Source of the DNA: Patescibacteria group bacterium
Lineage (GTDB): Bacteria; Patescibacteriota; Minisyncoccia; Phycocordibacterales; GWA1-40-21
Assembly (NCBI GenBank): GCA_018968925.1
Contig: JAGWZI010000003.1
Location: 1-42,169 of the forward strand
Length of the DNA: 42,169 nt
Direction: 5' to 3'
Shown: in pieces, positions 26,930-41,977 of the stretch
Layout of the letters: each line of letters starts with the position of its first letter
Position numbering within the stretch: position 1 is the first letter of the stretch
Position numbers and translations under genes: made by a program
The notes under the pieces: generated by a model
The model's database searches: none
Seen by the model: only the letters and a program-made list of their open reading frames with translations
Told to the model about the DNA's origin: nothing

Positions 26930-27856
26930 TCACTGCTTCTCGCGGTCGATGAAATCCTTGAAGTCGCCGATATGCTTGCGGATATTCTCGATCACCTCGG
27001 TCGAACCGGCGAGTGTTTTAATGCGATCGTCTTTTTCAAGCACGTCGATTTGCGCGTTCACATAGTCGCCAAAATAGCGCAGTTTCATTTCGGCAAGCTT
27101 TTCCGCGCCTGTTCCGGGTGCCGACGGGATCGACGGCATTGGGGATCGTTTGCCCTTCCCCTTTGAAAACCGACCGATGATAAATGCAAGGAAAGCGATG
27201 GCGAGAGCGGCGATAGCGAGTGAAAGCGGGGTGACCGGATAGCCAAAAAGGAGAAGCGGCGCCGGAACCGTGCAAGGCGTTTGTATCGGAGCGGCGGTCG
27301 TGGTGGCGACAGTGGCAGTGGCGGCGACCGCCGTCGGAACCGTCGCCGCCGAAGATGCCGTTGCTTGCGGCAATGTCGGCGTAATCGTGAAGGTTGCGGA
27401 ACCGAGACTCGTCGGAAGGCTCGTGCCGACGCCGTCGTTCGCAAGGACCGAACCGGAATCAAATGAAATTGCCGCTGTGCCTGCCGACTTGGCGCGGAAT
27501 GTGATCGAAACCACTTTGCCATTCTGTCCCTCAAAGCCGGGATTCAATACGATACCCTCAAATGTCACCGAGCCGTCGCTGTTCGAGAACGACGGATCGA
27601 CCGTCCAGAGCGAGACGATGGATCCCGATTTCGAGACGGACACCACGCTCAATTTGTCCTTGGGAAACGCAACGGTCGCCGAAACCGCGTTCATCGCCTG
27701 ATCCGTACTCGCGACATCGGCGTTCACGGTAAATTCGGAACCGGCCGAGACGCTTCCCGTTTGCGGCAAAAATGAAAGCGACGCCGCAGAGGCAGCGAGC
27801 GGCCCTGCAACCGCGGCAAGAACAAGAAGCGCGAATGTTACGATCTTTTTTTCCAT
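26930..27856 (-). CDS. Cohesin-domain membrane-anchored protein
   Basis: Signal peptide; GSEFTVNADV..NAVSATVAFPKDKLSVV..GKVVSITFRAKSAGTAAISF..SVLANDG cohesin-like sandwich; Thr/Ala/Pro linker; TM; cytoplasmic tail. Confidence 0.8.
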   Translation of the reverse strand: MEKKIVTFALLVLAAVAGPLAASAASLSFLPQTGSVSAGSEFTVNADVASTDQAMNAVSATVAFPKDKLSVVSVSKSGSIVSLWTVDPSFSNSDGSVTFEGIVLNPGFEGQNGKVVSITFRAKSAGTAAISFDSGSVLANDGVGTSLPTSLGSATFTITPTLPQATASSAATVPTAVAATATVATTTAAPIQTPCTVPAPLLLFGYPVTPLSLAIAALAIAFLAFIIGRFSKGKGKRSPMPSIPSAPGTGAEKLAEMKLRYFGDYVNAQIDVLEKDDRIKTLAGSTEVIENIRKHIGDFKDFIDREKQ

Positions 27857-28716
27857 ACGATAAAATAGAAAAGGAGAAAAACGAACAGAGCGATACCGAT
27901 GACGAACCATGTGTCGAGACTCGCATACCAGGCGAGCGGGTGTTCGGGGAGAAGACGCTCGACGCGGATATTGCCGGCAGTGTCGATCGCTTTGACGTAC
28001 ACGTAGCTCGACAAATTCTGATCGGCAAGCAGATACGGGCTCGTCGCCGGAATCCACGGCGCAAAATCGAACAATACGTGCTTCGTTTCCCGCACTTCAT
28101 AACCCTTGATGCCGCTTCCTTTATCCTGCGTCGAAAAGACGACGAACGCTTTCCCGTCGAATATGTTCGGATCCCGGGCGATTTCGGGCATAAAAGTTTC
28201 CGGCGGGGCCGTATTCGTGACGGGAATGATGCGCGTCGCCGGGCCGTTTTCGGCCACGGTAAACGACGAGCTTGTGACCGTAAATGTCGTCGGTGTGCCT
28301 GCGCCGTCGGCGAGAAGCATGGCGCCGTTCGTTATGCCGATTTCGCCTTTACCGGTCGATTTCGCGGAAAAAATGAGCGAAAGGATCTTTCCTTGCCTGC
28401 CGATGCCGCCCGGCGTGATGCCCGAAAACCGGACGCCCGCCGCAGTCGAGGTCGGCGCATCGACCCAGAAATTGACGACTGAATCGTTATCTCGGATTTG
28501 TTCGAGAGAAAGAAGGTTGGTCGGATACGTGACCGTACCACCGACCGCATTCACATTGGCGCTCGCCGGATCGATGACGATATCGACCTGGAATTCGCCC
28601 CCTGGACCGATACGATCGGCCGATGAGCTCGCAATAAACCGCGCAGCGGAGGAAACGCCCGGCACGGCAAGGATGATGGCGGCAAATACGGTGATGAAAA
28701 AGGAAAAGCGGCGCAT
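27838..28716 (-). CDS. Cohesin plus Ig-like domain membrane-anchored protein
   Basis: Signal peptide; GGEFQVDIVID..NAVGGTVTYP..GKILSLIFSAKSTGKGEI..LLADG; NTAPPETF..DKGSGIKGY..KAIDTAGN; C-terminal TM. Confidence 0.8.
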   Translation of the reverse strand: MRRFSFFITVFAAIILAVPGVSSAARFIASSSADRIGPGGEFQVDIVIDPASANVNAVGGTVTYPTNLLSLEQIRDNDSVVNFWVDAPTSTAAGVRFSGITPGGIGRQGKILSLIFSAKSTGKGEIGITNGAMLLADGAGTPTTFTVTSSSFTVAENGPATRIIPVTNTAPPETFMPEIARDPNIFDGKAFVVFSTQDKGSGIKGYEVRETKHVLFDFAPWIPATSPYLLADQNLSSYVYVKAIDTAGNIRVERLLPEHPLAWYASLDTWFVIGIALFVFLLFYFIVWKKRS

Positions 28717-28717
28717 A

Positions 28718-30259
28718 TTACGGGCGGATTATATCATTTTTCGGCGGTTCGGGTGCGATCGGTGCGGCATGGATCGTTCTCGGATCGACGAGCATATCGG
28801 CAGTTTGCACGGGCAAAACGGCAGCGGGAGGAACGGGAAGCGTTTTTGTTGCGGCAGGCGCGGAAACCGGCGCTTCCCTGTTTTCCGGCCGGGAAACGGC
28901 GTCTGCAACGCTGAGCGTTTGAAGATTTTTCAAAAATTGCTCTTTGAGCTCGCGCTGTTTCTGTTCGAGATCGAGCTTCTTCATCGCTTCCGTCGCATCC
29001 ACCAGCTGTTCCATCTGTTCCTTTTCCGACTGGTACAGCAGTTCCTCCTCTTTCGTCGTTTTCATGATGCGTTTCACTCGGGCGATGATGCGATGGCCGA
29101 AAAGATAATCGAGAATGAGGAAGATGACGAGAAGAATCACCAACCAGTTCGCCTGCACGAACGACACGAGTGTCGATGCTGAGGAAATGGTTATCGTTTC
29201 GTCGCGGACATTGCCCGCTTTGTCGAATGCCCGCACGGTGAGCCGCACATGTTCGAAAGGCTTGAGCGGCAATTGATACGGATTTTCCGCCTGGACGAAT
29301 ACCGGCGAGGTATTCGTCGCATTGCTCCCGTCGACGACGCCGACCTCGTAATGATCGATGCCGGCAAGCGTATCGGTCGTAAAGAACGAAACGAGCGCCT
29401 GGGTGCCGCCGGACGCGGAAACCATTTCGACCCCCGGCGTGAATGCCGCGGGAGGCGTCGTGTCGATACGGATCATGAAATGCGTCGTGCCGCCCCAAAC
29501 GCCCTGTTTTTGCGCTTTAATGTGAAAATACCAGATTCCGTCGGACAAATTCGGATATGAGATGACCGTGTCCGTGGCATCGAGCGTATTGTCCGGCACG
29601 GTGAACGGCTTATCATCAAGCGTGAAACTGAAACCGGAGACGCCGATATCGCGATTCCAGGCGAGAACCGGAGAATTGTTGTTATACCAGGTGTCCTCGA
29701 ACGGATGCGTTTCGGAAAAAACGGACGGACCAGCCGGCGACTGCGGCAGGATCGTGTACGAACCGCGATCGAGAGCAAGTTGCGTTTCACTCCCCTGTCC
29801 GTCGTTCGCCAGCACGCGCGAGGCGCTCGAAATCGTGATCGGCGCCTGTCCCGAAGAAACGGCGCGGAAGGTCATGGTCGTGATGAGACCGCTCGACGTG
29901 GTGATGCCGTTCGGAATGACACCAGAAAGCGAGAGCGTGCCGGCCGTGTTCGAATACGAGGGCGGATCGACCCAGATGCCGATGATGGAATTGCTGTTCG
30001 ACGGATTGACAAGCACCATTTTCGACGGATCGAAATTGACCGAGAGAGACACGGCATTGATGCTCCTCCCTTCGGTGTCGACGAAGACCGGAATCTCGAT
30101 CGTCGCGCCCTGGATGATCGTCGCGGAAGCCGGCGAGAAGAAGAGGTGCGATTTCTGCAGGAGTTTCGACGCGTCGACCGATACCGACGGTTGGGCGAAA
30201 ACGGCATGCGGAGCGAGCATGAGGCAGCAAAGGAACACGCTGGTGATGAGCCGTTTCAT
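28718..30259 (-). CDS. Cohesin plus two Ig/FN3-like domains, TM and coiled-coil tail
   Basis: Signal peptide; NAVSLSVNFDP..GLITTMTFRAVSSGQAPI..VLANDG; LSDGIWYFHIKA; DTTPP..RAFDKAGN; TM; Glu/Lys-rich then Pro-rich tail. Confidence 0.8.
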   Translation of the reverse strand: MKRLITSVFLCCLMLAPHAVFAQPSVSVDASKLLQKSHLFFSPASATIIQGATIEIPVFVDTEGRSINAVSLSVNFDPSKMVLVNPSNSNSIIGIWVDPPSYSNTAGTLSLSGVIPNGITTSSGLITTMTFRAVSSGQAPITISSASRVLANDGQGSETQLALDRGSYTILPQSPAGPSVFSETHPFEDTWYNNNSPVLAWNRDIGVSGFSFTLDDKPFTVPDNTLDATDTVISYPNLSDGIWYFHIKAQKQGVWGGTTHFMIRIDTTPPAAFTPGVEMVSASGGTQALVSFFTTDTLAGIDHYEVGVVDGSNATNTSPVFVQAENPYQLPLKPFEHVRLTVRAFDKAGNVRDETITISSASTLVSFVQANWLVILLVIFLILDYLFGHRIIARVKRIMKTTKEEELLYQSEKEQMEQLVDATEAMKKLDLEQKQRELKEQFLKNLQTLSVADAVSRPENREAPVSAPAATKTLPVPPAAVLPVQTADMLVDPRTIHAAPIAPEPPKNDIIRP

Positions 30260-30260
30260 A

Positions 30261-31640
30261 TTATCCCGTCCAGTAATACGCCATGATCGAGAAATCCGTG
30301 AGGGTGATCGCGCCGTCGCCTGACAATTCCTTCTTCTCTACGGCCGCGAATGTGGGCGAGAGCGCCCGATGATACCAGTACGCCGCGATCGAAAAATCCA
30401 CGAGATTCACGCGGCAATCGCCGTTCAGATCCCCTTTCGTCGGGCATGCTTGCGATGAGGCAAGGACGGTCTTGTCGCCGACTTGGAAGCCCACGGTATC
30501 CGAAAACGGACTGATGAGCGAGCTCGTGGCGGCTTTCGATTTCGTGCTGTGCAAAGCAAGCGCGAGGGGCGATGTGTCGAAATCATACAAATAGACGCCG
30601 TTCGCATCCGATTCCGTCTGTTCGAAATATTCCGGCGTTGAATGCACCGATATGGTGATCGCGGCATCCGGCACGCTCTGTCCGAAAATGGCGATAGTAT
30701 CGCCGCGCTTCACTTCGCTCTTGTCGACGGCGATCGTCGGCGCGAGAAAGATGCCGCCGATATTGGTCGTCACGCCCTGCGTGATGTAGATCGGGAACGT
30801 GAAGGCGCTCGACCGTCTGTTCTGGCTGTCCTCGCCGTAGACCGAAAACGTGTAATTGCCGGCGGCAAGACCGGCGATCGAAACGCTGAAATTGGCGTCC
30901 GGACCCGCAATGGTCGTCACGGCAAGCTGTCCGTCTTTGAGAATGCCGACCGTTGATAAGGGGTAGGCCCGGCCGGAAAAATTGACGCTGGCCGAGCCGC
31001 CGCCGTATGATACGCCTCCGCCACCGCCCCCTCCTCCGCCGCCACCTGACGAATACGTGCACGGCAACGGTCCGCCGTAATTGGTCGCCGAATGATCGGT
31101 ACATACCGGCGGCGCGCCGGAGGGTGTTGCCGAAACCTGTCCTGACGTGATGATGACATTGCCGTAGGCATCGAGCGCCTCGACGATGAAATAGTATGTC
31201 GTTCCGTTCGCGAGTCCCGGAATAATCGCCGACGTCACATTGCCGACCGAAGTAAAACTGTACGGTCCGCCGGAAACGGCCGACTGGCCGACCTTGTAGC
31301 CGGACACGTTCCAGCCCAAAGCGCCGTTCGCCGCCGTCCAGGAAAGCGACACCTGACCGTCGCCCGGTGTCGCCGCGATGACAGGCGACGAGACGACTGG
31401 ATAATACTGGAAACCGAAACTCCCGAGAAACGCCGAGGATGACGACTGGCCGATCGCGACTTGTCCGAGCGAACTCTGCAATTGGAAATTCGCCGACGCT
31501 GAATATCCGCCGCCGAGATCGATGACCGGATCAAGCACCGTATAATTGCCGGAGGAAAATTCCTGGGCGAAAGCAAACGGCGCCGCAAAGAAACAAGCGG
31601 TACAGAAAAAAACGGCAACTCGTGATAAAAAAAGACGCAT
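30261..31640 (-). CDS. Secreted FN3/Ig protein with C-terminal dockerin
   Basis: Signal peptide; FN3 (GDGQVSLSW..GY..GLANGTTYYFIVEA); poly-Gly linker; duplicated Ca-loop GDLNGDCRVNLVDF / ELSGDGAITLTDF; no TM anchor. Confidence 0.85.
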   Translation of the reverse strand: MRLFLSRVAVFFCTACFFAAPFAFAQEFSSGNYTVLDPVIDLGGGYSASANFQLQSSLGQVAIGQSSSSAFLGSFGFQYYPVVSSPVIAATPGDGQVSLSWTAANGALGWNVSGYKVGQSAVSGGPYSFTSVGNVTSAIIPGLANGTTYYFIVEALDAYGNVIITSGQVSATPSGAPPVCTDHSATNYGGPLPCTYSSGGGGGGGGGGGVSYGGGSASVNFSGRAYPLSTVGILKDGQLAVTTIAGPDANFSVSIAGLAAGNYTFSVYGEDSQNRRSSAFTFPIYITQGVTTNIGGIFLAPTIAVDKSEVKRGDTIAIFGQSVPDAAITISVHSTPEYFEQTESDANGVYLYDFDTSPLALALHSTKSKAATSSLISPFSDTVGFQVGDKTVLASSQACPTKGDLNGDCRVNLVDFSIAAYWYHRALSPTFAAVEKKELSGDGAITLTDFSIMAYYWTG

Positions 31641-31717: not shown

Positions 31718-32158
31718 TTATTTCTTCTTCGCGATATCTTTGACCGGAACTGCGACTTTCGGAATGCCTTCGCCGCGGGAATAGCTGTCGGCGATCTCCC
31801 GGATCTTTGAGACGATCTCGATCGGACTGTATTGGCTCTTGATGAGATAGAGTACCGCCCCGAGCTCAAGCCCTTTCTCGGCATCCTGTTCGCCGGCGAG
31901 GTTCGTCAGGAGAACGACCGGGATCGACTTGAGGGCGCCATCCGCTTTCATTTCCCGCAGGACCTCGAAACCGCTCTTTTTCGGCATCATGATATCGAGT
32001 ACCGCGACGAGCGGCTTCGGATCCATAGAATGCAGAAGGGAGATCGCGCTCTCGCCGTCGAAGGCGATTTTGAGATCGAAACCGTTCGCCTTGAACGCAC
32101 GCTCGTACATTCGGCTCATCAGCGGATCGTCTTCGGCAAAGAATAGCAGTGTCGACAT
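31718..32158 (-). CDS. Single-domain response regulator
   Basis: AEDD, LDIMMP, LLTN, LIK; no output domain. Confidence 0.92.
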   Translation of the reverse strand: MSTLLFFAEDDPLMSRMYERAFKANGFDLKIAFDGESAISLLHSMDPKPLVAVLDIMMPKKSGFEVLREMKADGALKSIPVVLLTNLAGEQDAEKGLELGAVLYLIKSQYSPIEIVSKIREIADSYSRGEGIPKVAVPVKDIAKKK

Positions 32159-32170: not shown

Positions 32171-32542
32171 TTATTTGATAAGCTTTTTCACGTTCTCGAG
32201 GATTTCCGCATTGCTCGTATCGATCTTGATGAGGAACATGGCCGCGCCGAGATCGAGAAACGCCTGCTTGTCCTCTTCGAAGAACGAATTGGTCAGAACG
32301 ATGACCGGCACGGACTGTATTCTAGCATCCTTTTTGATTTTTTTCAAAAACTCCCGACCGTCCATTTCCGACATGTGGACGTCAAGGATCATGATGGCAG
32401 GCAGATCCTTGGCCGCGGAGAGGTAGTCAAGCGCCGCCTGTCCGTTTTCCATCCGCGTCACGGCATATCCATGCATGGTGAAGAGACGCTCGTACATGTC
32501 GCCAACAAATTTGTCATCCTCGATAACGAGTATATTCTTCAT
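32171..32542 (-). CDS. Single-domain response regulator
   Basis: IEDD, LDVHM, VLTN, LIK; no output domain. Confidence 0.9.
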   Translation of the reverse strand: MKNILVIEDDKFVGDMYERLFTMHGYAVTRMENGQAALDYLSAAKDLPAIMILDVHMSEMDGREFLKKIKKDARIQSVPVIVLTNSFFEEDKQAFLDLGAAMFLIKIDTSNAEILENVKKLIK

Positions 32543-34523: not shown

Positions 34524-35600
34524 CTATGAATGGGTGCTTGAACCGTAGATTTCCTGGGTCGTGTAATAGCCGTCTTTGATGACCGTATCGGCGATATTGT
34601 CTTTGGTGACGATTTCGACGGACGGCAAAAGAACCGATGGCACGTCGAGAACCCCGTTATTGACCGGAGTCGTTGTGGCCGACAGCGGCTCGCCTTTCGC
34701 AAGCTCGATGGCGGCGGCGACGGCCGCGGCGTCTTCCTCGACGATCGGTTTGTACACCGTCGCGGCCTGCGTGCCAGCGATGATGCGCTGGAGTGCTGAT
34801 ATCTCGGCGTCCTGACCGGAGACCGGGACTTTGCCGTCGAGGCCGTGCTCATGCAGAGCCTCGATCGAGCCGAATGCCGTGCCGTCGTTCGCCGCCACGA
34901 CGCCGTCGACGGCGCCCGACGCATCGAGATACGCCTTCAGGTTCTTGTACGCGTTCTCCGGATTCCAGTTCGGCGTGAATTTGTCAAGAACAATCTTGAT
35001 CTCTCCCTTGTCGATGAGCGGCTGGAGCACCTTGAAAGCGCCCTGCTTGACGAGAATGGCATTGTTGTCGGTCAGCGATCCGCCGATGTAGGCGATGGCG
35101 AGCGGCTTCCCCTTGCCAAGCTTGCCGGACAGAGCGTTCACGACCGATTGCGCTTCATATTCGCCGATCTTTTGATTGTCGAACGAAACATAGAGATCGA
35201 TCGGGGTGTTTGTGATGAGCCGGTCGTAGGAAATGACTTTGATGCCGGCCTTGTGCGCGTCATTCACCACGGATGTCAAGCTTGTCGCATCGTACGGCGC
35301 GATCACAAGGATGTTCACGCCTTTGACGATCATCCCCTCGATCTGCGACACTTGGGTCGCGACGTTGTTTTCCGACGATTCCACGTCGACCACGGCTCCC
35401 AGGGCGTTCGCCTGCTTCACGAATTCGTCGCGATCGCGCTGCCAGCGCTCTTCCTGCAGAGTGCCGAGCGAGAAACCGATAAGAAGGCCGTCACCGGGGC
35501 CCTTTTTCTGAACCGGAACAAGCTGATGCCCCATGAAAAATACCGCGACTCCGAGCGCAATAACGATGATGACCGCACTTGCAATGAAAAATTTTTTCAT
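34524..35600 (-). CDS. XylF/ChvE-type sugar-binding protein, N-terminally anchored
   Basis: LQEERWQRDRD, GIKVISYDRLI, YVSFDN, GSLTDNNA, VAANDGTA, VSGQDAE, TVYKP match D-xylose-binding proteins; the ligand is inferred. Confidence 0.88.
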   Translation of the reverse strand: MKKFFIASAVIIVIALGVAVFFMGHQLVPVQKKGPGDGLLIGFSLGTLQEERWQRDRDEFVKQANALGAVVDVESSENNVATQVSQIEGMIVKGVNILVIAPYDATSLTSVVNDAHKAGIKVISYDRLITNTPIDLYVSFDNQKIGEYEAQSVVNALSGKLGKGKPLAIAYIGGSLTDNNAILVKQGAFKVLQPLIDKGEIKIVLDKFTPNWNPENAYKNLKAYLDASGAVDGVVAANDGTAFGSIEALHEHGLDGKVPVSGQDAEISALQRIIAGTQAATVYKPIVEEDAAAVAAAIELAKGEPLSATTTPVNNGVLDVPSVLLPSVEIVTKDNIADTVIKDGYYTTQEIYGSSTHS

Positions 35601-35636: not shown

Positions 35637-37118
35637 TTACGTCTCCAACTTTTTTGAGATGAGCAAGATGGGCATGAGCATCACGAGCATGATGAGCGTG
35701 ACGGTGATGAGCGTTAGGCGGTTTGCCGCGTTTGCGATATCAACGATATCCTGTTCGGATTCAGCCGAAGAGATCATGCCGACGATCTTGCCGTCGGCGT
35801 TCGCAAGCGGCAGGAAACTCGCATAGAATGGCTTGCCAAAAATATCCGTCGGCCCGCTCCACGGCGCGCCGGAAAACACGGTTGCGGCAATATTCGGATC
35901 GACGGGCGTTCCGACGAGCCGCGTCACGCCGTCCGTGTCGAAAAGCGTGCTTGCGACCGAGGTGGTCCCGTCGTACACGAACATGTCAAGACCGGTAAGC
36001 GCATGCAGACGGTCGGCAAAAACGTTGTCGAGCGGAAAACCAGCGATGACCGTGCCGATGATGCGGCCGCTTCCGTCGCGTACGGATGCGCCGGCCCGGA
36101 TCGAAAATCCCTCGACCGGACTTTCCGCGATCGTCGCGATCGAATTGCCGTTTGCAGCCTCTTCGAATGCGTGGTCATCGGCGAGCGAATCGCCGAGGCG
36201 GGACAGCGCATGCGCCCGGACAAGCACCGTGCCACCCGCGTCGGTGACGGTAAGGAATCCGAGGTTGTACGAACCGAGATACCGTTCGGCGATCTGATCG
36301 AGCGACACCATGTCAGACTTCGCGACGGCGCGGGCAAGCGATCCATCCGCGGCGATAAGGCCGGCTTTTGCGAGCGATTCCTGTTCCCATGCGCCGATCG
36401 AGAGGTTCATGACTTTGACGTTCGTCAGGAGATTTGCCGACGTATCGGTGCTCACGCGAGCAGAAAGAATCGTCGAAAACGCGAGCGTGATGACGGTCGC
36501 AAGGATGAACGTCGTACCGACCGCGATCATGACGAAGCTCTCGCTGAGGCGCAAACGCATGAACTGCCATATCCACGTGCCGAGCGCGACCGATGCAGCA
36601 AGCTCACCCGCGAGGCTGATCAAAGAAGGCGCGCCGAGCATGCTTCCCCCGAACGCGGCGAACAGTACGGCGATGCCGAAAAGAAAGCACGCGGCGGAAA
36701 ACGGCAGCCAGGTGCGGTTATATTCCCTCTTGGCCTGCCGGTAGGAAAGATAGGCGATGAAAAAGAGCACCGCCGCGCCGGCGATGAAAAATCTGCCGGC
36801 GACGGCGGAAAATGCCGGAATGACGATGACCGCGTTCGCAACGAGATCCTTCTTCTCGAGGAAACTTGCGGCAAGAATGATGAGTCCGGCAAAAAAGAAT
36901 ATGAGACCGATATATAAAAGAATGTCGCTCGTGCCTCCGAGGATGTAGAAAATGTTCCAAACAGCCTCGAGCGAAAGGCCGATCGTCCGCAGCAGGACGG
37001 CGTGTTCCCTGCCGAGACGGTAGGCGTCGAACGACAGCCACGCCGCCATGAGCAACATGATGGCGCTGATCATACCGACGGCGAAGCTCAGATTGTTGAC
37101 GAGAAAATATGCGGTCAT
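35637..37118 (-). CDS. Multi-TM protein with Cache-type domain and no cytoplasmic output
   Basis: About 7 N-terminal TM helices; FLTVTDAGGTVLVRAH..GDSL..IRAGASV..IIGTVIAG..FYASFLPL..GKIVGMI double-Cache-like domain; ends about 5 aa after the last TM. Confidence 0.75.
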   Translation of the reverse strand: MTAYFLVNNLSFAVGMISAIMLLMAAWLSFDAYRLGREHAVLLRTIGLSLEAVWNIFYILGGTSDILLYIGLIFFFAGLIILAASFLEKKDLVANAVIVIPAFSAVAGRFFIAGAAVLFFIAYLSYRQAKREYNRTWLPFSAACFLFGIAVLFAAFGGSMLGAPSLISLAGELAASVALGTWIWQFMRLRLSESFVMIAVGTTFILATVITLAFSTILSARVSTDTSANLLTNVKVMNLSIGAWEQESLAKAGLIAADGSLARAVAKSDMVSLDQIAERYLGSYNLGFLTVTDAGGTVLVRAHALSRLGDSLADDHAFEEAANGNSIATIAESPVEGFSIRAGASVRDGSGRIIGTVIAGFPLDNVFADRLHALTGLDMFVYDGTTSVASTLFDTDGVTRLVGTPVDPNIAATVFSGAPWSGPTDIFGKPFYASFLPLANADGKIVGMISSAESEQDIVDIANAANRLTLITVTLIMLVMLMPILLISKKLET

Positions 37119-37137
37119 CTCTTTCTATTATATCGCA

Positions 37138-37710
37138 TCACTGTTTGACGAGATTCTCTATCTTGTCCACAAGCGCGCTCCTGCCAAGGACGCCCGCGGA
37201 GACGTCGCGGATGACGCCCGAGCGGTCGATGAAGTACGTTTCCGGCAGTCCCGTCACCCGGTAATTTTCCGTCACGGCGCCCGACGAATCGAGCGCGAAC
37301 GGAACGTTGTAGCCGCTCCGGCGGGCAAGCGAAAGGGCGACGCTCGGGTCTTCTTCCGAATCGATCGCGAGGAACGAGACGAGCGGCGCGGCCGCGTCGG
37401 GATTCGCGCGGTAATCGCTCACGATTCGCAGTTCGTCAAGCGACGGCTGGCTCCAGCTCGACCAAAAAATAAGAACGAGTGGCTTGCCGGAAAATCCGGA
37501 CAATGAAACCGAATCGCCGCTCGCGCCGAGCAGATTGAATGACGGCGCCGCGCTTCCGACGAGGCTCGCATCCGTCGAAGTCGCCGCCGCGGCAGGTGCG
37601 CCGCGCGAACCGGTGATGACCGGGATCGCCTGCTTGCCCGATATGTATGCGATAAAAAACACCGCGGCAATGATCGCGGCGGCGGAAGCGATAAGTCCGG
37701 TGTATTTCAT
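37138..37710 (-). CDS. TlpA/ResA-like thioredoxin-fold protein lacking catalytic cysteines
   Basis: TM; AAPSFNL..GKPLVLIFWSSWSQPSLDEL..YRVTGLPETYFIDRSG; no Cys in the protein. Confidence 0.85.
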   Translation of the reverse strand: MKYTGLIASAAAIIAAVFFIAYISGKQAIPVITGSRGAPAAAATSTDASLVGSAAPSFNLLGASGDSVSLSGFSGKPLVLIFWSSWSQPSLDELRIVSDYRANPDAAAPLVSFLAIDSEEDPSVALSLARRSGYNVPFALDSSGAVTENYRVTGLPETYFIDRSGVIRDVSAGVLGRSALVDKIENLVKQ

Positions 37711-37746: not shown

Positions 37747-38178
37747 CTACTTTTTCTTGCCGCCCGTAGCTTGCGTTCCGGCGGAAGCGGTGGAAGTTGC
37801 GGAAGCCGGCACGGCGGCGGACCCTGCGCTGTTCACGTCGAACGGTCCGACATTGACGATCTGATTCTGCATCGGATTATAGAGCACCGCCTTTTTCTCG
37901 GTATAATAGAGGAGCACGTAATCTCCCGCTCGCGCATTGGCGAAAAACGGCTGGTCGGCAAGCTGCGACGGATCGGTCACTTTGACGACAGAGGGCGTTT
38001 CGCCTTCCGGCAGGACGATGAGTTTGCTCGCCGCCCGGATGATGGCGTTTGCCTGGTCTTGCGCCGCCTGCTGGGGATTCGAAGAGAGAGCCGACAGCTT
38101 TCCATACAAAACGACGGATGCCGTTATCGACCCGGCAAGAGCGATGCAAAGAACGGCGATGAGAATGTTCTTTTTCAT
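37747..38178 (-). CDS. Hypothetical membrane-anchored protein
   Basis: TM, then LIVLPEGETPSVVKVTD..QPFFANARAGDYVLLY..KAVLYNP. Confidence 0.75.
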   Translation of the reverse strand: MKKNILIAVLCIALAGSITASVVLYGKLSALSSNPQQAAQDQANAIIRAASKLIVLPEGETPSVVKVTDPSQLADQPFFANARAGDYVLLYYTEKKAVLYNPMQNQIVNVGPFDVNSAGSAAVPASATSTASAGTQATGGKKK

Positions 38179-38218: not shown

Positions 38219-41200
38219 CTAGAGGGAATACTTGAAGAAATCGATGACGGGTCCGATCCATTTCATGAGGCCAGTCGAGGACGGAAGGAGAAAAGATGCG
38301 TTCACGATGCCGGAGCGACTGAGCGATACCACCTCTTCCTCCGTCCGGTAACCGAAGCCGCTCGCAATGATGCGGTACGCGCCTGCGCGCAGGATGAGAC
38401 GGTAGGTACCGCTCGCATCGGATGCGACCGATGCGAGCGCACCGTACTGCCCCGTCGCCGGATCGAGCCTGAGAATGCGAAGGCGGATGTTCGCAAGCGG
38501 CAGAATGCCGGACGGCGTCTCGGAACCGACAAATCCTTCCTCATGCGGCTCGATCGTGCCGATCCGCTTGTTCGAGACCGCATTGCCCGCGCGGTCGCGC
38601 GCGCTGAGAGCAACGCTCGCCGTCGCGTCGATGCCTGCTTGCACATCGGTCTTCCAGAGGCCGTCCGTCTGGTCGAGCGACAGCGGAACGATCGTCGTGC
38701 CGAGCGAGAGCGATGCGGAAACGGCATCGTTTGAAAGCGATACGGCGAAGAAGAACGGCTTGCCGCGATAAATGCCGATCGTTCCGGATTCGTCGGGATC
38801 AAGTTCCGTTCCGTCCTCGGTCGCGAAGAAACCACCGATATGCGGCGCTGTCGTATCGACCGTGATGTCTTTCGAAACGACATCGGAACGGTTCCCCGCT
38901 TCGTCGACCGCGCGGACGGAAATAGTGTACATGCCGTCGGCAAGCGCCCCGGGATACGCGATGGAAAACGTCCGGTCACTGCTGCCCGGCTCGCCGCCCG
39001 TCACCGCCTCGTACCATTCGCCGGGACTTCCGCCAGCCGGCGTGACGGAAAATTCGACGGCGGCGATGCCAGAAAGTGAATCATGCGCACTGCCGGATGC
39101 GATGAAGCTTTTTCCGGCCGGCGCCGCAGCGAACCGCAGGACGGCGGGCGGTGTGCGATCGACCGAAAAACCGATGACCGATGTGCTCGTCGCGATGCCG
39201 TCCGCCGCAACGATCCGCAGCCGATAGCCCGTCGATTCGGGAAGAGCGGAAAAATCAAACGGTGCGGTACCGCTCGCAGCGGCATTCTCGACGATCGTCC
39301 GGAACGGTCCGTCGGGAGCGCTGTAGCTTATCGTAATACTGGTCGTACTCCGGCTCTCGACGCGCCATGCGAGAAAGCTTTCCCCCGAAAGGCCGCCGAG
39401 CGACTGAGGATTGACAAAGGTGATGACCGGCGGATCGTCATAAGTCACGGAAAACGCCGCCGGCGAACTTGTGTTACCCGCTTCGTCCGTCGCAAAAAGC
39501 GAAAATGTCTGGTTTCCCCGCGCGAGCGTCACGTCATGGAACGCAAACGTCCCGTCCGGCAACGCGACGGCCGTGGTCGTGCCGGACACTCCCCTGAGCG
39601 AAACGATGCTGCCAGCTTCGGCGGTGCCCGCGATCGTGATCTGCACGCCGGGCACGGCCGGATCCTCGTCGTCCGCGGTGGTTACGAGGGATCCGTCGGT
39701 CGGCGTTTTGGTGACAGGCGGCGCGGGCGGCGTGCGGTCGATGATGAGCGCGTGGCTCGCCCGGCCGGTCAGACCATGGTTGTCTTTTATGACGAATTGG
39801 ATCTGATGGACGCCTTCGGAAAGATTTTGCAGACTGAAAGAGAAATTCTGTTCCGGTGCGCGCGAAAGCTTGAAGGGAATGCTGGTCCACGTCGAAGCGC
39901 CGTCCGCCGCATAGAGAACGCTCCCCACGTATGTTCCCGCCGGAGCATTCGGTGCGACAAACGCGTGTCCGGCAACCGTGGCGATCGCATCATGGGTCGC
40001 CGTCACCCTGCCGTCATCGAAACGCGCATACGGCGCGGTATTCTGGACAATGATGCGTACCGGCGACGTCGTAGCCGACAAGATGCCGTCGGAAACGATC
40101 GCCCGGATCATATAGTCGCCGTTGTCCGCTTCGGTGCTGTCCCAGGCATACGCGGCGTCGCCAAGATGATCGGCGACCGTCGTCCATGCCGCAGTGGAGC
40201 TTGCGGAAAGGTACCCCTGGAGAGGCGTTATCTGATAGGTATAAGAGAGGAGATTCTGGTTTTCCGACGAGGCGTCGGCCCTGAGCCGTGCCGTGCCTGA
40301 AAGATAGCTGCCATCGGCCGGCTCGGCAAGACTCGCGGACGGAGGGATTTCCCAGACGATGACGGCGTCCGCCGATGGTCCGATCGAATCGAACGCGTCC
40401 GCCGCATAGACGCTGACGGTATTTCTGCCGTGATTGGCCCCTTTTTCAAGCGGAACGTTCGTGAATACAAAATTGCCGTTCGCGTCCGGCGTCGTCGAAG
40501 CGATAGCTGTGCCGTTCACTTTTATAAAAATGGTCGTGTCCGGACGCGCCATGCCGGCAACGGCGATCGTACCGGCCGTCACGGTCTTCTCGCCGAAACC
40601 GGACATAACGATCGGCGCAGGCGGCGGATTGAAACCGACGATGAACGTTCCGCCGGATACGGTCGTCGTGCCGGTATTGCCCGCGACATCCGTACCGGAA
40701 ACGGCGATGACCGCATTGCCGTCATAGCCCGCAAGAGTAGTATAGACGCCGTTATATATGCTGCCGCTTCCCTGCATCAAAACGGCGACTGGCGCATGGC
40801 CGCGCTGGGCGACCGTCACGGACGGCACGCCTGTGAGATCCTTCGATGCGGTGACGGTGATCGTCACGCTGCCTTTCTTGACGGCAGGCACGTCGGTCTT
40901 TACGACGAACGTGGGCGGCGTGAAATCGACGGTAAAAAGGCCAGATGCGCTTTCGGCAAAATCGCCGCCGCGATCGGTCACATCCGCGATGACGCGGTAT
41001 CCGATGCCCGGCAAGAGATTTCTGACCGGCCAGGCGTACGTGCTCGATGCCGGAAGATCTTTCTCAATCAAGACTTTGTCGGCGGAATCAACCGCCTGAC
41101 CGAACCATTCGGGAGTGGTTGTCGAATAAAAAAGCGATACCGGTAAAGGAGCGAGACCGTACTCGAGTTGTTCGCTGACCGGACCAAGATCGTTCCGATC

Positions 41201-41977
41201 AGTCGCACGATAAGCGATAAGGGTTGAGGAAGAGAATATCATTCCGTCTCTTGGAGAAAACACCTGTATGACCGGATTAAAATTCCGGGCTATCTTCAAC
41301 ATGTCGCTCGAAAACGAGAGAACAAAAACCGACGGAGGTACATAGGTGAAATTCCGATCGAACGCTTGGATCTCATACGTCACAGCATTCGTATCCGGCA
41401 GAATTTCGACCGTGCCGCACTGTACGGGTCCCGAATCGACCCCAACAACCTCGTAATACGCAATATTCGTATTGCATCCGGGAATGAACGGATTGCCGTC
41501 GAACACGGTGGAAGGCGCGATGAGCGGCAAAATGCCGCCCGAAGAATAGTGCGGCGTATCATCATATATGGTAAATGCGGCTTCCCCCGCCGGCCCGTCA
41601 TATTGCGGATCGGCGCGCATGCCGGAAAGCGTCAGATTGGCCGATGTTCCGGAACCGCCGTTCGGATCGGCGTTCGTGAATTCGACGGCGACATAATTTC
41701 CCGGCGGCTGCATGTAATTCGCCCATGTCTGTCCGCATACGTCCGCGCTGTCCACTTGCACGCCGGTATCGGCGTTGAATACGGCAAACGAACCGTCGCA
41801 ATCGAACGTCACGTTATATTCCTGGCTTAAAGCCACTGAATTCGGCGTCACGACCATATGCGCGGCAAACACCCGGGACGGGATGCCGAGCATAAAAACC
41901 GGCAAGAAAAATCCAATCGCGGTAAAGACGCTGCGGAACGACATACATCTTTTGATGCAGGTGGCGATGATTCGCAT
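38219..41977 (-). CDS. Large secreted Ig-like repeat surface protein
   Basis: Signal-like N-terminus; repeated D(F/R/T)T(P/A)P..D.AGN Big-type modules; C-terminal carboxypeptidase-regulatory-like sandwich (SDASGTYRLILRAGAYRIIASGFGY). Confidence 0.82.
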   Translation of the reverse strand: MRIIATCIKRCMSFRSVFTAIGFFLPVFMLGIPSRVFAAHMVVTPNSVALSQEYNVTFDCDGSFAVFNADTGVQVDSADVCGQTWANYMQPPGNYVAVEFTNADPNGGSGTSANLTLSGMRADPQYDGPAGEAAFTIYDDTPHYSSGGILPLIAPSTVFDGNPFIPGCNTNIAYYEVVGVDSGPVQCGTVEILPDTNAVTYEIQAFDRNFTYVPPSVFVLSFSSDMLKIARNFNPVIQVFSPRDGMIFSSSTLIAYRATDRNDLGPVSEQLEYGLAPLPVSLFYSTTTPEWFGQAVDSADKVLIEKDLPASSTYAWPVRNLLPGIGYRVIADVTDRGGDFAESASGLFTVDFTPPTFVVKTDVPAVKKGSVTITVTASKDLTGVPSVTVAQRGHAPVAVLMQGSGSIYNGVYTTLAGYDGNAVIAVSGTDVAGNTGTTTVSGGTFIVGFNPPPAPIVMSGFGEKTVTAGTIAVAGMARPDTTIFIKVNGTAIASTTPDANGNFVFTNVPLEKGANHGRNTVSVYAADAFDSIGPSADAVIVWEIPPSASLAEPADGSYLSGTARLRADASSENQNLLSYTYQITPLQGYLSASSTAAWTTVADHLGDAAYAWDSTEADNGDYMIRAIVSDGILSATTSPVRIIVQNTAPYARFDDGRVTATHDAIATVAGHAFVAPNAPAGTYVGSVLYAADGASTWTSIPFKLSRAPEQNFSFSLQNLSEGVHQIQFVIKDNHGLTGRASHALIIDRTPPAPPVTKTPTDGSLVTTADDEDPAVPGVQITIAGTAEAGSIVSLRGVSGTTTAVALPDGTFAFHDVTLARGNQTFSLFATDEAGNTSSPAAFSVTYDDPPVITFVNPQSLGGLSGESFLAWRVESRSTTSITISYSAPDGPFRTIVENAAASGTAPFDFSALPESTGYRLRIVAADGIATSTSVIGFSVDRTPPAVLRFAAAPAGKSFIASGSAHDSLSGIAAVEFSVTPAGGSPGEWYEAVTGGEPGSSDRTFSIAYPGALADGMYTISVRAVDEAGNRSDVVSKDITVDTTAPHIGGFFATEDGTELDPDESGTIGIYRGKPFFFAVSLSNDAVSASLSLGTTIVPLSLDQTDGLWKTDVQAGIDATASVALSARDRAGNAVSNKRIGTIEPHEEGFVGSETPSGILPLANIRLRILRLDPATGQYGALASVASDASGTYRLILRAGAYRIIASGFGYRTEEEVVSLSRSGIVNASFLLPSSTGLMKWIGPVIDFFKYSL

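What the first reader, a model, noticed from the sequence alone, without database searches (positions are those of the whole stretch)
26930..41977. Candidate sugar-sensed cohesin-dockerin surface system in one co-oriented locus
Seen: twelve consecutive - strand genes: giant Ig-repeat protein, small anchored protein, Cys-free TlpA, Cache sensor, XylF-like binding protein, histidine kinase, two receivers, a dockerin protein and three cohesin proteins. Known: cohesin-dockerin pairs build cellulosomes, and binding-protein/kinase pairs sense sugars. Inference: a small-genome, probably episymbiotic bacterium links extracellular sugar sensing to assembly or deployment of a modular surface complex, e.g. 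for host or substrate attachment. No glycoside hydrolase domain is recognisable. I do not know of a description of this combination.
Basis: partly seen in the sequence, partly recalled or inferred. Interest (0 to 1): 0.85.

Follow-up and report, generated by a model that had tools for sequence, protein, structure and literature searches.

The report
Cohesin-dockerin surface cassette beside sensor island
A tiny-genome bacterium carries a widespread gene set that probably docks a stalk protein onto membrane anchors, and in this genome a sugar-sensor gene block sits inside that set, a pairing that most relatives lack.

Summary

The run joins two separable modules.

(A) Surface cassette: giant secreted protein, small anchored protein g02, dockerin stalk protein g09, then 2-3 cohesin proteins with a C-terminal membrane helix.
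- It occurs widely in Patescibacteria (490 g09 relatives).
- In the best 80 loci a cohesin gene follows g09 in 76 of 77 evaluable cases.
- The binding-protein, Cache and Trx genes are found in 0 of 80 of those loci; HK and receiver genes each have one distant hit.

(B) Signalling island: Ig-repeat giant g01, Cys-free thioredoxin-fold g03, multi-TM Cache g04, a variable sensor slot, kinase, stand-alone receivers.
- It was found in 10 other genomes.
- It lies directly upstream of g02/g09 in 3 of those 10, so 4 of 11 with the window.
- The sensor slot holds the XylF-like protein only here. Elsewhere it holds CHASE4, CHASE or Peripla_BP_6.

This genome has one dockerin and three cohesins, all in the cassette, and the twelve proteins show no glycoside hydrolase domain. 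The likeliest function is membrane anchoring of a surface stalk, not a cellulosome. Sugar control of it is possible but unproven.

The parts
38219..41977 (-). g01: 1252-aa secreted Ig-repeat giant (Big_13, Big_6, Big_3_3, DUF7743, CarbopepD_reg-like C-terminus). It is the first gene of the signalling island and sits where relatives carry other giant genes.
   Evidence: Pfam and NCBIfam. Orthologues (25-37% identity) lie next to g03-g04 in G005, G301, G175, G395, G250, G048 and G346. It is not homologous to the giants upstream of g09 in the 56 loci tested.
37747..38178 (-). g02: 143-aa protein with an N-terminal membrane helix and no known family. It is a conserved member of the surface cassette.
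   Evidence: No Pfam hit at E<=10. A g02-like gene lies within 2 kb upstream of g09 on the same strand in 54 of 77 evaluable loci. The protein atlas gives only hypothetical-protein clusters, commonest phylum Minisyncoccota.
37138..37710 (-). g03: membrane-anchored thioredoxin-fold protein with no cysteine (a pseudo-TlpA/ResA).
   Evidence: AhpC-TSA 58.6 bits and Redoxin 51.2 bits. It has 0 Cys. W[NS]xx[SA] replaces the CxxC motif in 8 of 8 aligned orthologues.
35637..37118 (-). g04: polytopic membrane protein with an extracytoplasmic Cache (sCache_3) domain and no cytoplasmic output domain.
   Evidence: sCache_3_3 64.6 bits, sCache_3_2 and dCache_3. Full-length orthologues occur in 9 of 400 genomes sampled from the class, plus G005.
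34524..35600 (-). g05: membrane-tethered XylF/ChvE-like monosaccharide-binding protein, probably a sensor input to g06.
   Evidence: Peripla_BP_4 204 bits. XylF 324 and 321 bits and ChvE 240 bits are all below the equivalog cut-offs. No BPD_transp_2 permease was found in the 92.9%-complete genome. The only orthologue among 40 relatives (G014, 68% identity) lies directly before a g06 orthologue.
32557..34509 (-). g06: sensor histidine kinase (two TM helices, extracytoplasmic loop, HAMP, HisKA, HATPase_c).
   Evidence: Pfam. A full-length orthologue (51% identity) follows the SBP in G014.
32171..32542 (-). g07: stand-alone receiver (123 aa).
   Evidence: Response_reg 70.7 bits, no other domain. 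All 4 receiver hits in the genome lie in open frames of 125-167 aa, and no Trans_reg_C domain was found.
31718..32158 (-). g08: stand-alone receiver (146 aa), the receiver type conserved in the island.
   Evidence: Response_reg 62.5 bits. Orthologues of 54-66% identity occur in the islands of G005, G301, G250 and G175.
30261..31640 (-). g09: secreted stalk protein made of signal peptide, N-terminal PamT-type module, fn3, Gly-rich linker, two Ig-like domains and a C-terminal dockerin.
   Evidence: AF2 model, mean pLDDT 76.5. At least 1495 homologues, some named 'dockerin type I repeat-containing protein' by NCBI. 490 relatives were found in species genomes.
31386..31571 (-). g09 residues 24-85: N-terminal beta-strand module shared with PamT and with many other secreted proteins.
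   Evidence: NCBIfam CPR_pilus_PamT 37.9 bits, E 1.3e-9, profile positions 5-78 of 241, cut-off 240. 240 representatives at E<=1e-3; in nearly all of the 150 listed the match starts within about 60 residues of the N-terminus (one repeat protein matches at 157-187), and lengths run from 82 to 1178 aa. The module has low pLDDT (36-44) in the monomer model.
30264..30455 (-). g09 residues 396-459: dockerin, the only one found in this genome.
   Evidence: Dockerin_1 22.2 bits excised and rated over the cut-off in the genome scan. PDB dockerins 2y3n_B at E 1.9e-4 and 5nrm_B at E 0.022. A family HMM finds 1 hit in the whole genome. The Cys399/Cys409 pair is present together in 31 of 38 aligned homologues and absent together in 7.
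28718..30259 (-). g10: cohesin, two Ig/fn3-like domains, TM helix, then a long cytoplasmic helix and disordered tail.
   Evidence: Cohesin 25.4 bits. AF2 mean pLDDT 80.8. The top 17 VIA-align rows are all cohesins, Z 13.6-16.0. Foldseek best hit 2w1n at E 1.1e-11. At least 1025 homologues, most with PF00963.
29741..30160 (-). g10 residues 34-173: the cohesin domain.
   Evidence: VIA-align: 4uyp_A Z 16.0, rmsd 2.5 A, 133 residues aligned; 2xdh_A (non-cellulosomal archaeal cohesin) Z 15.0.
27838..28716 (-). g11: cohesin-like domain, one Ig-like domain and a C-terminal TM helix. This is the cohesin type that most often follows g09 directly in other genomes.
   Evidence: Cohesin 18.2 bits, below the cut-off. 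Family HMM E 2.1e-17. It is the best-matching query immediately downstream of g09 in most of the 80 loci.
26930..27856 (-). g12: cohesin-like domain, Ala/Thr/Pro-rich linker, TM helix and a cytoplasmic tail of about 70 aa.
   Evidence: No Pfam hit. Family HMM E 4.1e-30. tblastn against g10 gives E 4.4e-19.

Best explanation
The twelve genes are two separable modules lying side by side.

Module A (g02, g09, g10-g12, usually preceded by a giant secreted protein) is a surface cassette found widely in Patescibacteria. Its proposed working is as follows.
- Three cohesin proteins are exported and held in the cytoplasmic membrane by C-terminal helices.
- The single dockerin-bearing protein g09 is secreted and plugs its calcium-type dockerin into these cohesins.
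- A stalk of fn3 and Ig-like domains then stands on the cell, with its N-terminal PamT-type strand module pointing outwards. That module is available to hold another surface component, such as the neighbouring giant protein or a filament.

The domain identities, the 1:3 stoichiometry and the gene linkage are shown. The binding itself and the outward partner are inferred.

Module B (g01, g03-g08) is a signalling island: an Ig-repeat giant, a Cys-free thioredoxin-fold protein, a polytopic Cache protein, an exchangeable extracytoplasmic sensor, a histidine kinase and stand-alone receivers. In this genome the exchangeable sensor is a XylF/ChvE-like sugar-binding protein with no transporter. It probably reports a monosaccharide to kinase g06, in the manner of binding-protein-dependent kinases. 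The receivers have no DNA-binding domain, so the output must go through protein contacts.

The island sits between g02 and g09 because the space upstream of g09 is where giant surface-protein genes and their accessories lie. Regulation of the cassette by the island is possible but not required.
For: Module A is conserved and self-contained.
- 490 g09 relatives were found in species genomes.
- In the best 80 loci a cohesin-like gene starts within 1.5 kb downstream on the same strand in 76 of 77 evaluable loci, and g02 lies within 2 kb upstream in 54 of 77.
- Exactly one dockerin ORF occurs per locus in 79 of 80. Cohesin domains per locus number 2 in 49 loci and 3 in 23.
- An ORF of at least 1000 aa touches the 6 kb upstream in 40 of 48 loci, against 6 of 53 downstream.
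- In this genome family HMMs find 1 dockerin and 3 cohesins, all in the cassette.
- Folds: the g10 cohesin matches solved cohesins at Z 13.6-16.0. The g09 dockerin is modelled as three helices at pLDDT of about 93, and it matches a solved dockerin at E 1.9e-4.

The modules are separable.
- Module B genes are missing from the 80 loci: SBP 0, Cache 0, Trx 0, one weak HK hit and one receiver hit.
- The closest relative, G021 (LepA 86% identical), has a 2472-aa giant directly upstream of g09 and no island.
- G175 (97% complete) has the island, but no g09 was found. G346 has both, 67 kb apart.

Module B is a unit of its own.
- g01-g03-g04 are syntenic in 7 other genomes, and g03-g04 in 2 more.
- The Cys-free state of g03 holds in 8 of 8 orthologues.
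- The sensor slot varies: CHASE4, Peripla_BP_6 with sCache_3/HAMP, or CHASE/PAS.

The SBP looks like a sensor.
- No BPD_transp_2 permease was found in the genome.
- The SBP-kinase adjacency is kept in G014.
Against: - No binding of the dockerin to any of the three cohesins has been shown.
- The Pfam scores for the dockerin, g11 and g12 are at or below the cut-offs.
- The island abuts g02/g09 in 4 of the 11 genomes that have it, from three families (G000, G005, G301, G250). That is far more than chance placement in genomes of 0.6-0.9 Mb would give, so a functional tie is not excluded.
- G018 has a different kinase and two receivers directly downstream of its cohesin gene.
- The 80 broad loci are the best-scoring of 490, not a random sample.
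- The contig ends 192 bp upstream of g01, so what precedes g01 is unknown.
- The idea that g09 holds the giant protein rests on neighbourhood alone.
Confidence: 0.68

Rival explanations
1. One reading: the sensor island controls the cohesin-dockerin cassette. A sugar bound by g05 activates kinase g06. The phosphorylated stand-alone receivers then change assembly or display of the g09-cohesin complex, either by read-through transcription of one long operon or by contact with the cytoplasmic tails of g10 and g12.
For: - All twelve genes are co-oriented with gaps of 77 bp or less. The consensus scan found no terminator-like site in the 77-bp g08|g09 gap.
- The island lies directly upstream of g02/g09 in 4 of 11 island-bearing genomes from three families, with g04 only 36-47% identical between them.
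- G018 has a kinase and two receivers directly after its cohesin gene.
- g10 and g12 have cytoplasmic tails.
- All four receivers in the genome lack output domains, so they must act on proteins.
Against: - None of the 80 broad g09 loci has the SBP, Cache or Trx genes. HK and receiver genes appear once each, far from g09.
- 11 of the 13 g09-bearing genomes in the relatives sample lack the island at g09.
- The island is unlinked from g09 in G346, and on other contigs in G048, G395, G427 and G092. No g09 was found in G175 or G364.
- The sugar-binding protein is in this island only.
- No expression data could be obtained.
Confidence: 0.2
2. The cassette is a Pam-like, donor-strand-exchange pilus system. 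g09 would be a tip or adaptor subunit with a PamT-type N-terminus. The two-domain, C-terminally anchored 'cohesin' proteins would be membrane-bound chaperones like PamC and PamD. The dockerin similarity would be incidental.
For: - The g09 N-terminus matches NCBIfam CPR_pilus_PamT at E 1.3e-9.
- The N-terminal module is poorly modelled alone (pLDDT 36-44), as an incomplete fold awaiting a partner strand might be.
- In the Pam preprint, PamC and PamD are two-beta-domain proteins with a C-terminal TM helix, and a tail-fibre-like giant is a conserved neighbour (PMC13278184, passages read).
- g11 has the same gross layout.
- The giant next to g09 in G021 carries a Peptidase_S74 tail-fibre chaperone domain.
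Against: - The PamT match covers only profile positions 5-78 of 241 and scores 33-38 bits against a cut-off of 240.
- No other Pam model matched g02 or g10-g12, even at E<=10.
- The N-domain of g10 is a cohesin by HMM and by fold. The top 17 structural rows are cohesins and no PapD-type chaperone is among the 50 listed.
- The dockerin is the best-conserved part of g09 across 38 homologues.
- The own-genome HMM scan found no second protein with the N-terminal module.
Confidence: 0.1
3. The locus is a minimal cellulosome-like enzyme complex for polysaccharide breakdown, induced by the released sugar.
For: - Cohesin and dockerin domains sit next to a XylF-like sugar-binding protein.
- g01 has a weak Glucodextran_B hit, 24.4 bits against a cut-off of 27.
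Against: - The genome has only one dockerin, and it sits on a protein made of fn3 and Ig-like domains.
- None of the twelve proteins has a glycoside hydrolase or carbohydrate-binding catalytic family at E<=0.01.
- Each cohesin protein has a single cohesin, so there is no multi-cohesin scaffoldin.
- The Glucodextran_B hit is to the Ig-like domain B.
Confidence: 0.02

Closest known systems
Cell-surface anchoring scaffoldins of cellulosomes (recalled examples: Clostridium thermocellum SdbA, OlpB and Orf2p binding the CipA type II dockerin). Solved cohesin-dockerin complexes seen here include 4uyp, 4dh2, 1ohz and 5k39.
   Same: A cohesin tethered at the cell surface receives the C-terminal dockerin of a secreted multi-domain protein. 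The cohesin fold (Z up to 16.0) and the duplicated calcium-loop dockerin are present.
   Different: - The anchor is a C-terminal transmembrane helix with a cytoplasmic tail, not an SLH or sortase anchor.
- There is one cohesin per protein and one dockerin per genome.
- The docked protein carries no enzymes.
- The host is a 0.58-Mb Patescibacteria genome.
- Binding is untested.
Non-cellulosomal cohesin-dockerin modules (PDB 2xdh Archaeoglobus fulgidus cohesin; the Clostridium perfringens GH84C and GH33 cohesins 2w1n, 2o4e, 2vo8). The survey of such modules across the three domains of life is recalled, not read here.
   Same: Cohesin and dockerin are used outside plant cell-wall degradation. These entries are among the best structural matches (2xdh_A Z 15.0, 2vo8_A Z 15.3, 2w1n_A Z 15.1).
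   Different: Those examples join enzymes or toxins. Here the cassette is a fixed, syntenic set (g02, dockerin stalk, 2-3 membrane cohesins) beside giant genes, and it is conserved across many Patescibacteria lineages.
Pam pili of CPR bacteria (Troman et al. 2026 preprint, PMC13278184; abstract and passages read).
   Same: - It is a CPR-specific surface system without a trans-envelope machine.
- Its accessory proteins are held by C-terminal TM helices.
- A tail-fibre-like giant is a neighbour.
- g09 shares the first 55 or so mature residues with PamT.
   Different: - No PamA/B-type pilins or PapD-like chaperones were detected.
- The anchored proteins are cohesins.
- g09 ends in a dockerin.
- Pam homologues were reported mainly in Saccharimonadia and Microgenomatia, whereas this cassette's named records are Parcubacteria- and ABY1-type lineages.
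Binding-protein-dependent histidine kinases (recalled: ChvE-VirA of Agrobacterium, XylFII-LytS of Clostridium, LuxP-LuxQ, TorT-TorS).
   Same: A XylF/ChvE-family binding protein is encoded directly before a membrane kinase. No cognate permease was found in the genome, and the adjacency is kept in G014.
   Different: - The downstream partners are two stand-alone receivers with no DNA-binding domain.
- The kinase's extracytoplasmic loop has no recognised family.
- The ligand is unknown, because the XylF and ChvE scores fall below the equivalog cut-offs.

Membership tests
Cohesin (Pfam PF00963) | Sequence scores above the Pfam gathering threshold (24.1 bits) | tested here: met
   g10 scores 25.4 bits. 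g11 scores 18.2 bits and g12 has no hit, so those two fail on Pfam alone. An HMM built from g10 orthologues finds g12 at E 4.1e-30 and g11 at E 2.1e-17.
Cohesin (Pfam PF00963) | Nine-stranded beta-sandwich fold superposable on solved cohesins | tested here: met
   For g10 model residues 34-173 the top 17 of 48,161 chains are cohesins of types I, II and III, with Z 13.6-16.0 and rmsd 2.2-2.8 A. Foldseek gives 6kgf_C at TM 0.75, rmsd 2.8 A. g11 and g12 were not modelled.
Cohesin (Pfam PF00963) | Binds a dockerin | not testable with these tools
   This needs a binding assay or a solved complex. The genomic pairing is strong (76 of 77 loci) but is not a binding test.
Dockerin type I (Pfam PF00404) | Sequence scores above the gathering threshold (22.9 bits) | tested here: inconclusive
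   The excised C-terminus scores 22.2 bits. The six-frame scan gives 18.5 bits, marked over the cut-off at 24.1 bits with its neighbours in the frame. Several homologues carry a precomputed PF00404.
Dockerin type I (Pfam PF00404) | Two tandem segments, each a calcium-binding loop (D-x-N-x-D ... D) followed by a helix | tested here: met
   The first loop is D404-N406-D408...D415, invariant in 38 of 38 aligned homologues. The second segment, LNGDGKIDLVD, has D442 nearly invariant and D449 invariant, but the first loop position is not a conserved Asp. The model shows helices at 413-422, 429-438 and 447-457 at pLDDT of about 93. Solved dockerins 2y3n_B, 5nrm_B and 1ohz_B align over residues 401-459.
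Cellulosome | Several dockerin-bearing glycoside hydrolases or other enzymes | tested here: not met
   One dockerin was found in the 92.9%-complete genome, on a protein of fn3 and Ig-like domains. The twelve proteins have no hydrolase family.
Cellulosome | A scaffoldin with multiple cohesins in one polypeptide | tested here: not met
   Each of g10, g11 and g12 has one cohesin domain.
CPR-type Pam pilus, PamT (NCBIfam NF058579) | Whole-protein score at or above the equivalog cut-off (240 bits) over the 241-position profile | tested here: not met
   The score is 33.0 bits for the whole protein and 37.9 bits for residues 1-85, over profile positions 5-79 only.
CPR-type Pam pilus system | PamA/PamB-type pilins and PapD-like chaperones PamC/PamD in the locus | tested here: inconclusive
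   No further Pam model matched the ten proteins scanned at E<=0.01 or the five scanned at E<=10. I do not know which Pam models the library holds. No PapD-type chain is among the 50 listed structural matches of g10.
D-xylose-binding protein XylF (NCBIfam NF007680 / TIGR02634) | Score at or above the equivalog cut-off | tested here: not met
   324.2 bits against 504, and 320.9 bits against 389.55. ChvE scores 240.1 against 460. The protein belongs to the family (Peripla_BP_4, 204 bits), but its ligand is not assigned.
Binding-protein-dependent sensor kinase pair | The binding protein is encoded next to the kinase and no cognate ABC permease is present | tested here: met
   g05 and g06 are 14 bp apart. 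No BPD_transp_2 was found in the genome, while 12 of 14 control genomes have it. The same adjacency occurs in G014.
Binding-protein-dependent sensor kinase pair | Physical contact of the binding protein with the kinase's sensor loop, and ligand-dependent kinase activity | not testable with these tools
TlpA/ResA/DsbE thiol-disulfide oxidoreductases | CxxC active site | tested here: not met
   g03 has 0 Cys. WSQPS stands at the motif, and 8 of 8 orthologues lack both cysteines. The ResA, DsbE and TlpA models score far below their cut-offs.
Classical two-component regulator (OmpR/NarL type) | Receiver fused to a DNA-binding output domain | tested here: not met
   g07 and g08 are receiver-only. 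All 4 receiver hits in the genome lie in open frames of 125-167 aa, and no Trans_reg_C was found. NarL- and LytTR-type outputs were not searched.

The most novel reading that the evidence does not exclude
The cassette is the general docking station of Patescibacteria for their giant host-contact proteins. Membrane cohesins hold the g09 stalk, and the stalk's PamT-type N-terminal module captures the giant protein or a filament. In the minority of genomes where the Cache/kinase island abuts the cassette, the phosphorylated stand-alone receivers would bind the cytoplasmic tails of the cohesin anchors. An extracellular cue (here a monosaccharide) would then switch surface display from the inside. 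That would be the first regulated, transmembrane cohesin-dockerin system.
Probability: 0.08. Interest if true: 0.85.

Novelty: new variant of a known kind. Interest (0 to 1): 0.5.

Why it matters
Patescibacteria are thought to live attached to host cells, and how their surface structures are built and anchored is largely unknown.

A fixed gene set lies next to giant surface-protein genes in hundreds of species genomes. It comprises a small anchored protein, one dockerin-bearing stalk and two or three membrane-anchored cohesins. It gives a concrete, testable candidate for how these cells fasten large surface proteins without a sortase or an outer membrane.

It also extends cohesin-dockerin pairing to a non-enzymatic, membrane-anchored role.

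The sugar-sensing link that made the finding attractive is a feature of this genome and a few others, not of the system. Even so, the recurrent placement of a Cache/kinase island at this site marks a small set of genomes in which regulated display could be tested.

Tried and rejected
- Complex prediction (collected): g10 cohesin residues 28-178 with g09 dockerin residues 392-459 and two calcium ions. The verdict was 'no answer': scores 0.24, 0.35 and 0.37, with one control at 0.56. This is neither support nor evidence against binding. g11 and g12 were not tried, because the cap is one job.
- The look-up of sequencing runs for RNA over window 27000-36900: no RNA holder was listed, so co-expression could not be examined and read laying was not used.
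- The search of earlier findings was closed, so no earlier notes were seen.
- The promoter/terminator consensus scan of 26400-42169 and a reading of the g08|g09 gap gave no usable signal. Terminator-like sites numbered 23, against 17.5 +/- 3.9 expected.
- Foldseek on the whole g09 model returned only generic tandem fn3/Ig chains.
- Pfam at E<=10 and the protein atlas gave no family for g02.
- Literature: six searches found no paper describing a cohesin-dockerin cassette in Parcubacteria or CPR. The term sets were cohesin+dockerin+Patescibacteria; dockerin+Parcubacteria; 'cohesin domain'+'candidate phyla radiation'; noncellulosomal+cohesin+dockerin; cohesin+dockerin+CPR+surface; and PamT+pilus. 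For most papers I saw only listings. The Omnitrophota giant-gene preprint (10.1101/2023.11.21.568195, passages read) concerns a different dockerin-like repeat. Subscription journals are not in the library.
The supplements of PMC13278184 (homologue lists, operon tables) might show whether g09-type proteins were already counted as PamT relatives.
- Considered and rejected: a cellulosome (see rivals), and g03 as a redox enzyme (it has no cysteine).
- The clustering of the C-termini of upstream giants (44 of 56 in one BLAST cluster) may be inflated by Pro/Thr-rich tails and was not checked with a profile.

Full report
**1. What is there**

The window is contig C1 of a 579,453-bp, 31-contig genome rated 92.9% complete, with GC about 0.56. 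Homologues of its proteins come from records named Parcubacteria, Patescibacteria group, Magasanik-, Taylor-, Nomura- and Uhrbacteria and the like. A small-genome Patescibacteria organism is therefore a fair reading.

From 41977 down to 26930 there are twelve minus-strand ORFs with gaps of 40, 36, 19, 36, 14, 14, 12, 77, 1, 1 and -19 bp.
- g01: Ig-repeat giant.
- g02: 143-aa protein with one N-terminal helix and no family.
- g03: thioredoxin-fold protein with no cysteine.
- g04: polytopic protein with an sCache_3 domain and no output domain.
- g05: Peripla_BP_4 protein closest to XylF and ChvE, but below their equivalog cut-offs.
- g06: HAMP-HisKA-HATPase kinase.
- g07 and g08: two receiver-only proteins.
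- g09: protein with weak fn3 and Big_6 hits and a borderline Dockerin_1 C-terminus.
- g10-g12: one clear cohesin, one sub-threshold cohesin and one Pfam-negative paralogue.

I moved the start of g12 to the internal Met at 27856. The longest ORF would overlap g11 by 220 bp.

**2. Are the cohesin and dockerin calls real?**

Yes.
- With a 37-sequence alignment, AlphaFold2 models g10 at mean pLDDT 80.8: a beta-sandwich at 36-171, two further Ig/fn3-like domains, a membrane helix at 363-386 and a long cytoplasmic helix.
- An all-against-representatives structural search puts 17 cohesins of types I, II and III in the top 17 rows (Z 13.6-16.0, rmsd 2.2-2.8 A, about 130 residues). One of them is a non-cellulosomal archaeal cohesin. 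Foldseek agrees.
- An HMM built from g10 orthologues finds g12 (E 4e-30) and g11 (E 2e-17), and nothing else in the genome.
- The g09 model (pLDDT 76.5) has a signal helix, a poorly defined strand region at 21-80, an fn3 domain, a Gly-rich linker, two Ig-like domains and a three-helix C-terminus at pLDDT of about 93.
- That C-terminus aligns to solved dockerins (2y3n_B at E 1.9e-4). It is the best-conserved part of the family, and the first calcium loop is invariant in 38 of 38 sequences.
- The genome holds exactly one such dockerin.
- With one dockerin on a non-enzymatic stalk, single-cohesin proteins and no hydrolase domain in the locus, this is not a cellulosome.

**3. The cassette is widespread and has a fixed layout**
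- g09 has at least 1495 homologues and g10 at least 1025 in the protein collection. Full-length identity is typically 45-70%, and some are already auto-named 'dockerin type I repeat-containing' or 'cohesin domain-containing'.
- A scan of one genome per species found 490 g09 relatives. I analysed the best 80 loci with up to 10 kb on each side.
- A cohesin-like gene starts within 1.5 kb downstream on the same strand in 76 of the 77 loci that have at least 700 bp downstream.
- A g02-like gene lies within 2 kb upstream in 54 of the 77 loci that have at least 700 bp upstream.
- 79 of 80 loci have exactly one dockerin ORF. Cohesin domains per locus number 0 (1 locus), 1 (4), 2 (49), 3 (23), 4 (1) and 5 (2).
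- An ORF of at least 1000 aa touches the 6 kb upstream in 40 of 48 evaluable loci (median largest 2007 aa, truncated by the flank). The figure is 6 of 53 in the 6 kb beyond the last cohesin (median 628 aa).
- The conserved unit is therefore giant gene(s), g02, g09 and 2-3 cohesin genes.
- The cassette is patchy. g09 was found in 13 of 41 genomes of the relatives sample including the window's own genome, which is 9 of 24 congeners.

**4. The signalling genes are a separate module**

Absence from g09 loci:
- In the same 80 loci, tblastn at E<=1e-3 finds the SBP in 0, the Cache protein in 0 and the Trx-like protein in 0.
- It finds one weak kinase hit about 10 kb away and one receiver 8.8 kb away.

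The 13 relatives whose loci I fetched:
- None has g03, g04 or g05 at the cassette.
- G018 has a different kinase and two receivers directly after its cohesin gene.
- G011 has a receiver 7 kb downstream.
- g02 abuts g09 in G023, G002 and G022.

What replaces the island upstream of g09:
- The closest relative, G021 (LepA 86% identical), has a 2472-aa giant with a Peptidase_S74 domain directly upstream of g09.
- G020 has a 4831-aa giant, g02 and a beta-lactamase-like gene there.
- G022 has ORFs of 1261, 998 and 2394 aa followed by g02.

**5. The island recurs, and sometimes at this very place**
- The SBP has one orthologue among 40 relatives, in G014. It sits on a 7.7-kb contig in the order kinase, receiver, receiver, SBP, kinase, with no cassette gene on that contig.
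- The Cache protein g04 has one orthologue among the 40 relatives (G005) and nine among 400 genomes drawn from the class.
- Around these, g01-g03-g04 are syntenic in G005, G301, G175, G395, G250, G048 and G346. g03-g04 are syntenic in G092 and G427. The G364 contig is too short to tell.
- Kinases and g08-like receivers are nearby.
- All 8 aligned g03 orthologues lack both active-site cysteines, so the inactive thioredoxin fold is a conserved feature.
- The position taken by the sugar-binding protein in the window is variable:
  - G005: a CHASE4 protein.
  - G301: Peripla_BP_6, a sCache_3/HAMP protein and a PAS kinase.
  - G175: CHASE/PAS and HAMP/PAS proteins.
  - G250: an AAA_14/DUF4143 gene.
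- The island lies directly upstream of g02/g09 in G005, G301 (g09 at C11:2090-3400) and G250, as it does in the window. These four genomes span three families.
- In G346 the two are 67 kb apart on one contig. In G048, G395, G427 and G092 they lie on different contigs. No g09 was found in G175 (97% complete) or G364 (87% complete).
- The frequency of the island at a g09 locus is therefore low: none of the 80 broad loci, and 2 of the 13 g09-bearing genomes in the relatives sample. The frequency of adjacency to g09 among island-bearing genomes is 4 of 11.

**6. How it most likely works**

Shown:
- the domain identities;
- one dockerin to three cohesins;
- the tight and widespread gene linkage of g02, g09 and the cohesins;
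- giant genes upstream;
- C-terminal hydrophobic helices on all three cohesin proteins;
- cytoplasmic tails on g10 and g12.

Inferred:
- the cohesins are exported and held in the membrane;
- g09 docks on them through its dockerin;
- the stalk presents its N-terminal module outward.

That N-terminal module (residues 24-85) occurs directly behind the signal peptide in at least 240 representative proteins of 82-1178 aa. It is shared with the N-terminus of PamT, the proposed tip subunit of the recently described CPR Pam pilus (PMC13278184). It scores far below that family's cut-off, so g09 is not PamT. Its low confidence in the monomer model is compatible with a fold completed by a partner, but that is speculation.

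For the island:
- The binding protein with no permease in the genome and the conserved SBP-kinase adjacency fit a binding-protein-dependent kinase. ChvE-VirA and XylFII-LytS are recalled precedents.
- The four receivers of the genome are all stand-alone, and no OmpR-type output domain was found. The output is therefore by protein contact and its target is unknown.

**7. Verdict**

A cohesin-dockerin surface system is there, but it is a common Patescibacteria cassette that normally has no sensor genes. The sugar-binding input is peculiar to this genome.

The simplest account of the juxtaposition is that the island travels with its own giant protein g01 into the giant-gene slot upstream of g09. 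The recurrence of this placement in three families keeps a regulatory tie alive, at roughly one chance in five.

In the searchable literature I found no description of the cassette, although automatic annotation already names its domains. I rate it a new variant of a known kind, with moderate interest.

**8. Limits**
- No binding, expression or localisation evidence could be obtained (see Tried and rejected).
- The 80 loci are the best-scoring, not a random draw.
- Genome samples are draws from larger groups.
- Several contigs are short.
- The contig ends 192 bp upstream of g01.

Noticed in passing
window 30264-30455 (g09 residues 396-459); alignment A1: Two cysteines flank the first calcium loop of the dockerin (Cys399 and Cys409 in g09). 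They are both present in 31 of 38 aligned homologues and both absent in 7. None has only one, which suggests a disulfide clasp.
   Followed up: partly
window 4718-6163, minus strand: A second kinase (HisKA and HATPase_c, 341 aa, no membrane part detected) and a stand-alone receiver. They are paralogues of g06 (42% identity) and g08 (52% identity).
   Followed up: partly
whole genome G000: All four receiver domains found lie in open frames of 125-167 aa, and no Trans_reg_C output domain was found. Two-component signalling here seems to lack classical DNA-binding regulators. Other output families were not searched.
   Followed up: partly
window 26456-26929, plus strand: A hemerythrin-domain gene (49.1 bits) converges on g12 and ends one base before the g12 stop codon. 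A paralogue lies on contig C3.
   Followed up: no
G000 contigs C18 (about 12.1-15.6 kb, contig end) and C21 (about 2.1-3.9 kb): Fragments homologous to the giant proteins that precede g09 in other genomes lie at or near contig ends. The giant gene of this genome may be broken by assembly and could join the window's end upstream of g01.
   Followed up: partly
loci L038-L117, ORFs upstream of g09: The last 250 residues of the nearest upstream giant fall into one BLAST cluster in 44 of 56 loci. Several show a shared motif of the form GFxIxLNKxAPxDIxFxW.A.AVK followed by a Pro/Thr-rich tail. The low-complexity tails may inflate the cluster.
   Followed up: partly
relatives sample G001-G040 compared with the cross-lineage hits: g09 is patchy, being found in 9 of 24 congeners. 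Its identity to the window's copy is similar within the genus (53-79%) and in records named for other lineages such as Magasanikbacteria and Uhrbacteria (about 50-57%). That suggests strong constraint or lateral spread.
   Followed up: no
L027 (G018:C16) 3190-9069: A divergent cassette (a cohesin-like 589-aa ORF and a weak g09-like ORF) is followed, after a 35-bp gap, by a 1071-aa kinase and two receivers. This sensor-cassette adjacency differs from the one in the window.
   Followed up: partly
window 12810-14702, 18725-21124 and 21117-21890: The rest of the window holds housekeeping genes: a P-type ATPase, a class I tRNA synthetase and a PrsW-type protease. LepA lies at 24610-26400, directly downstream of the cassette, as it also does in G021 and G020.
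   Followed up: no
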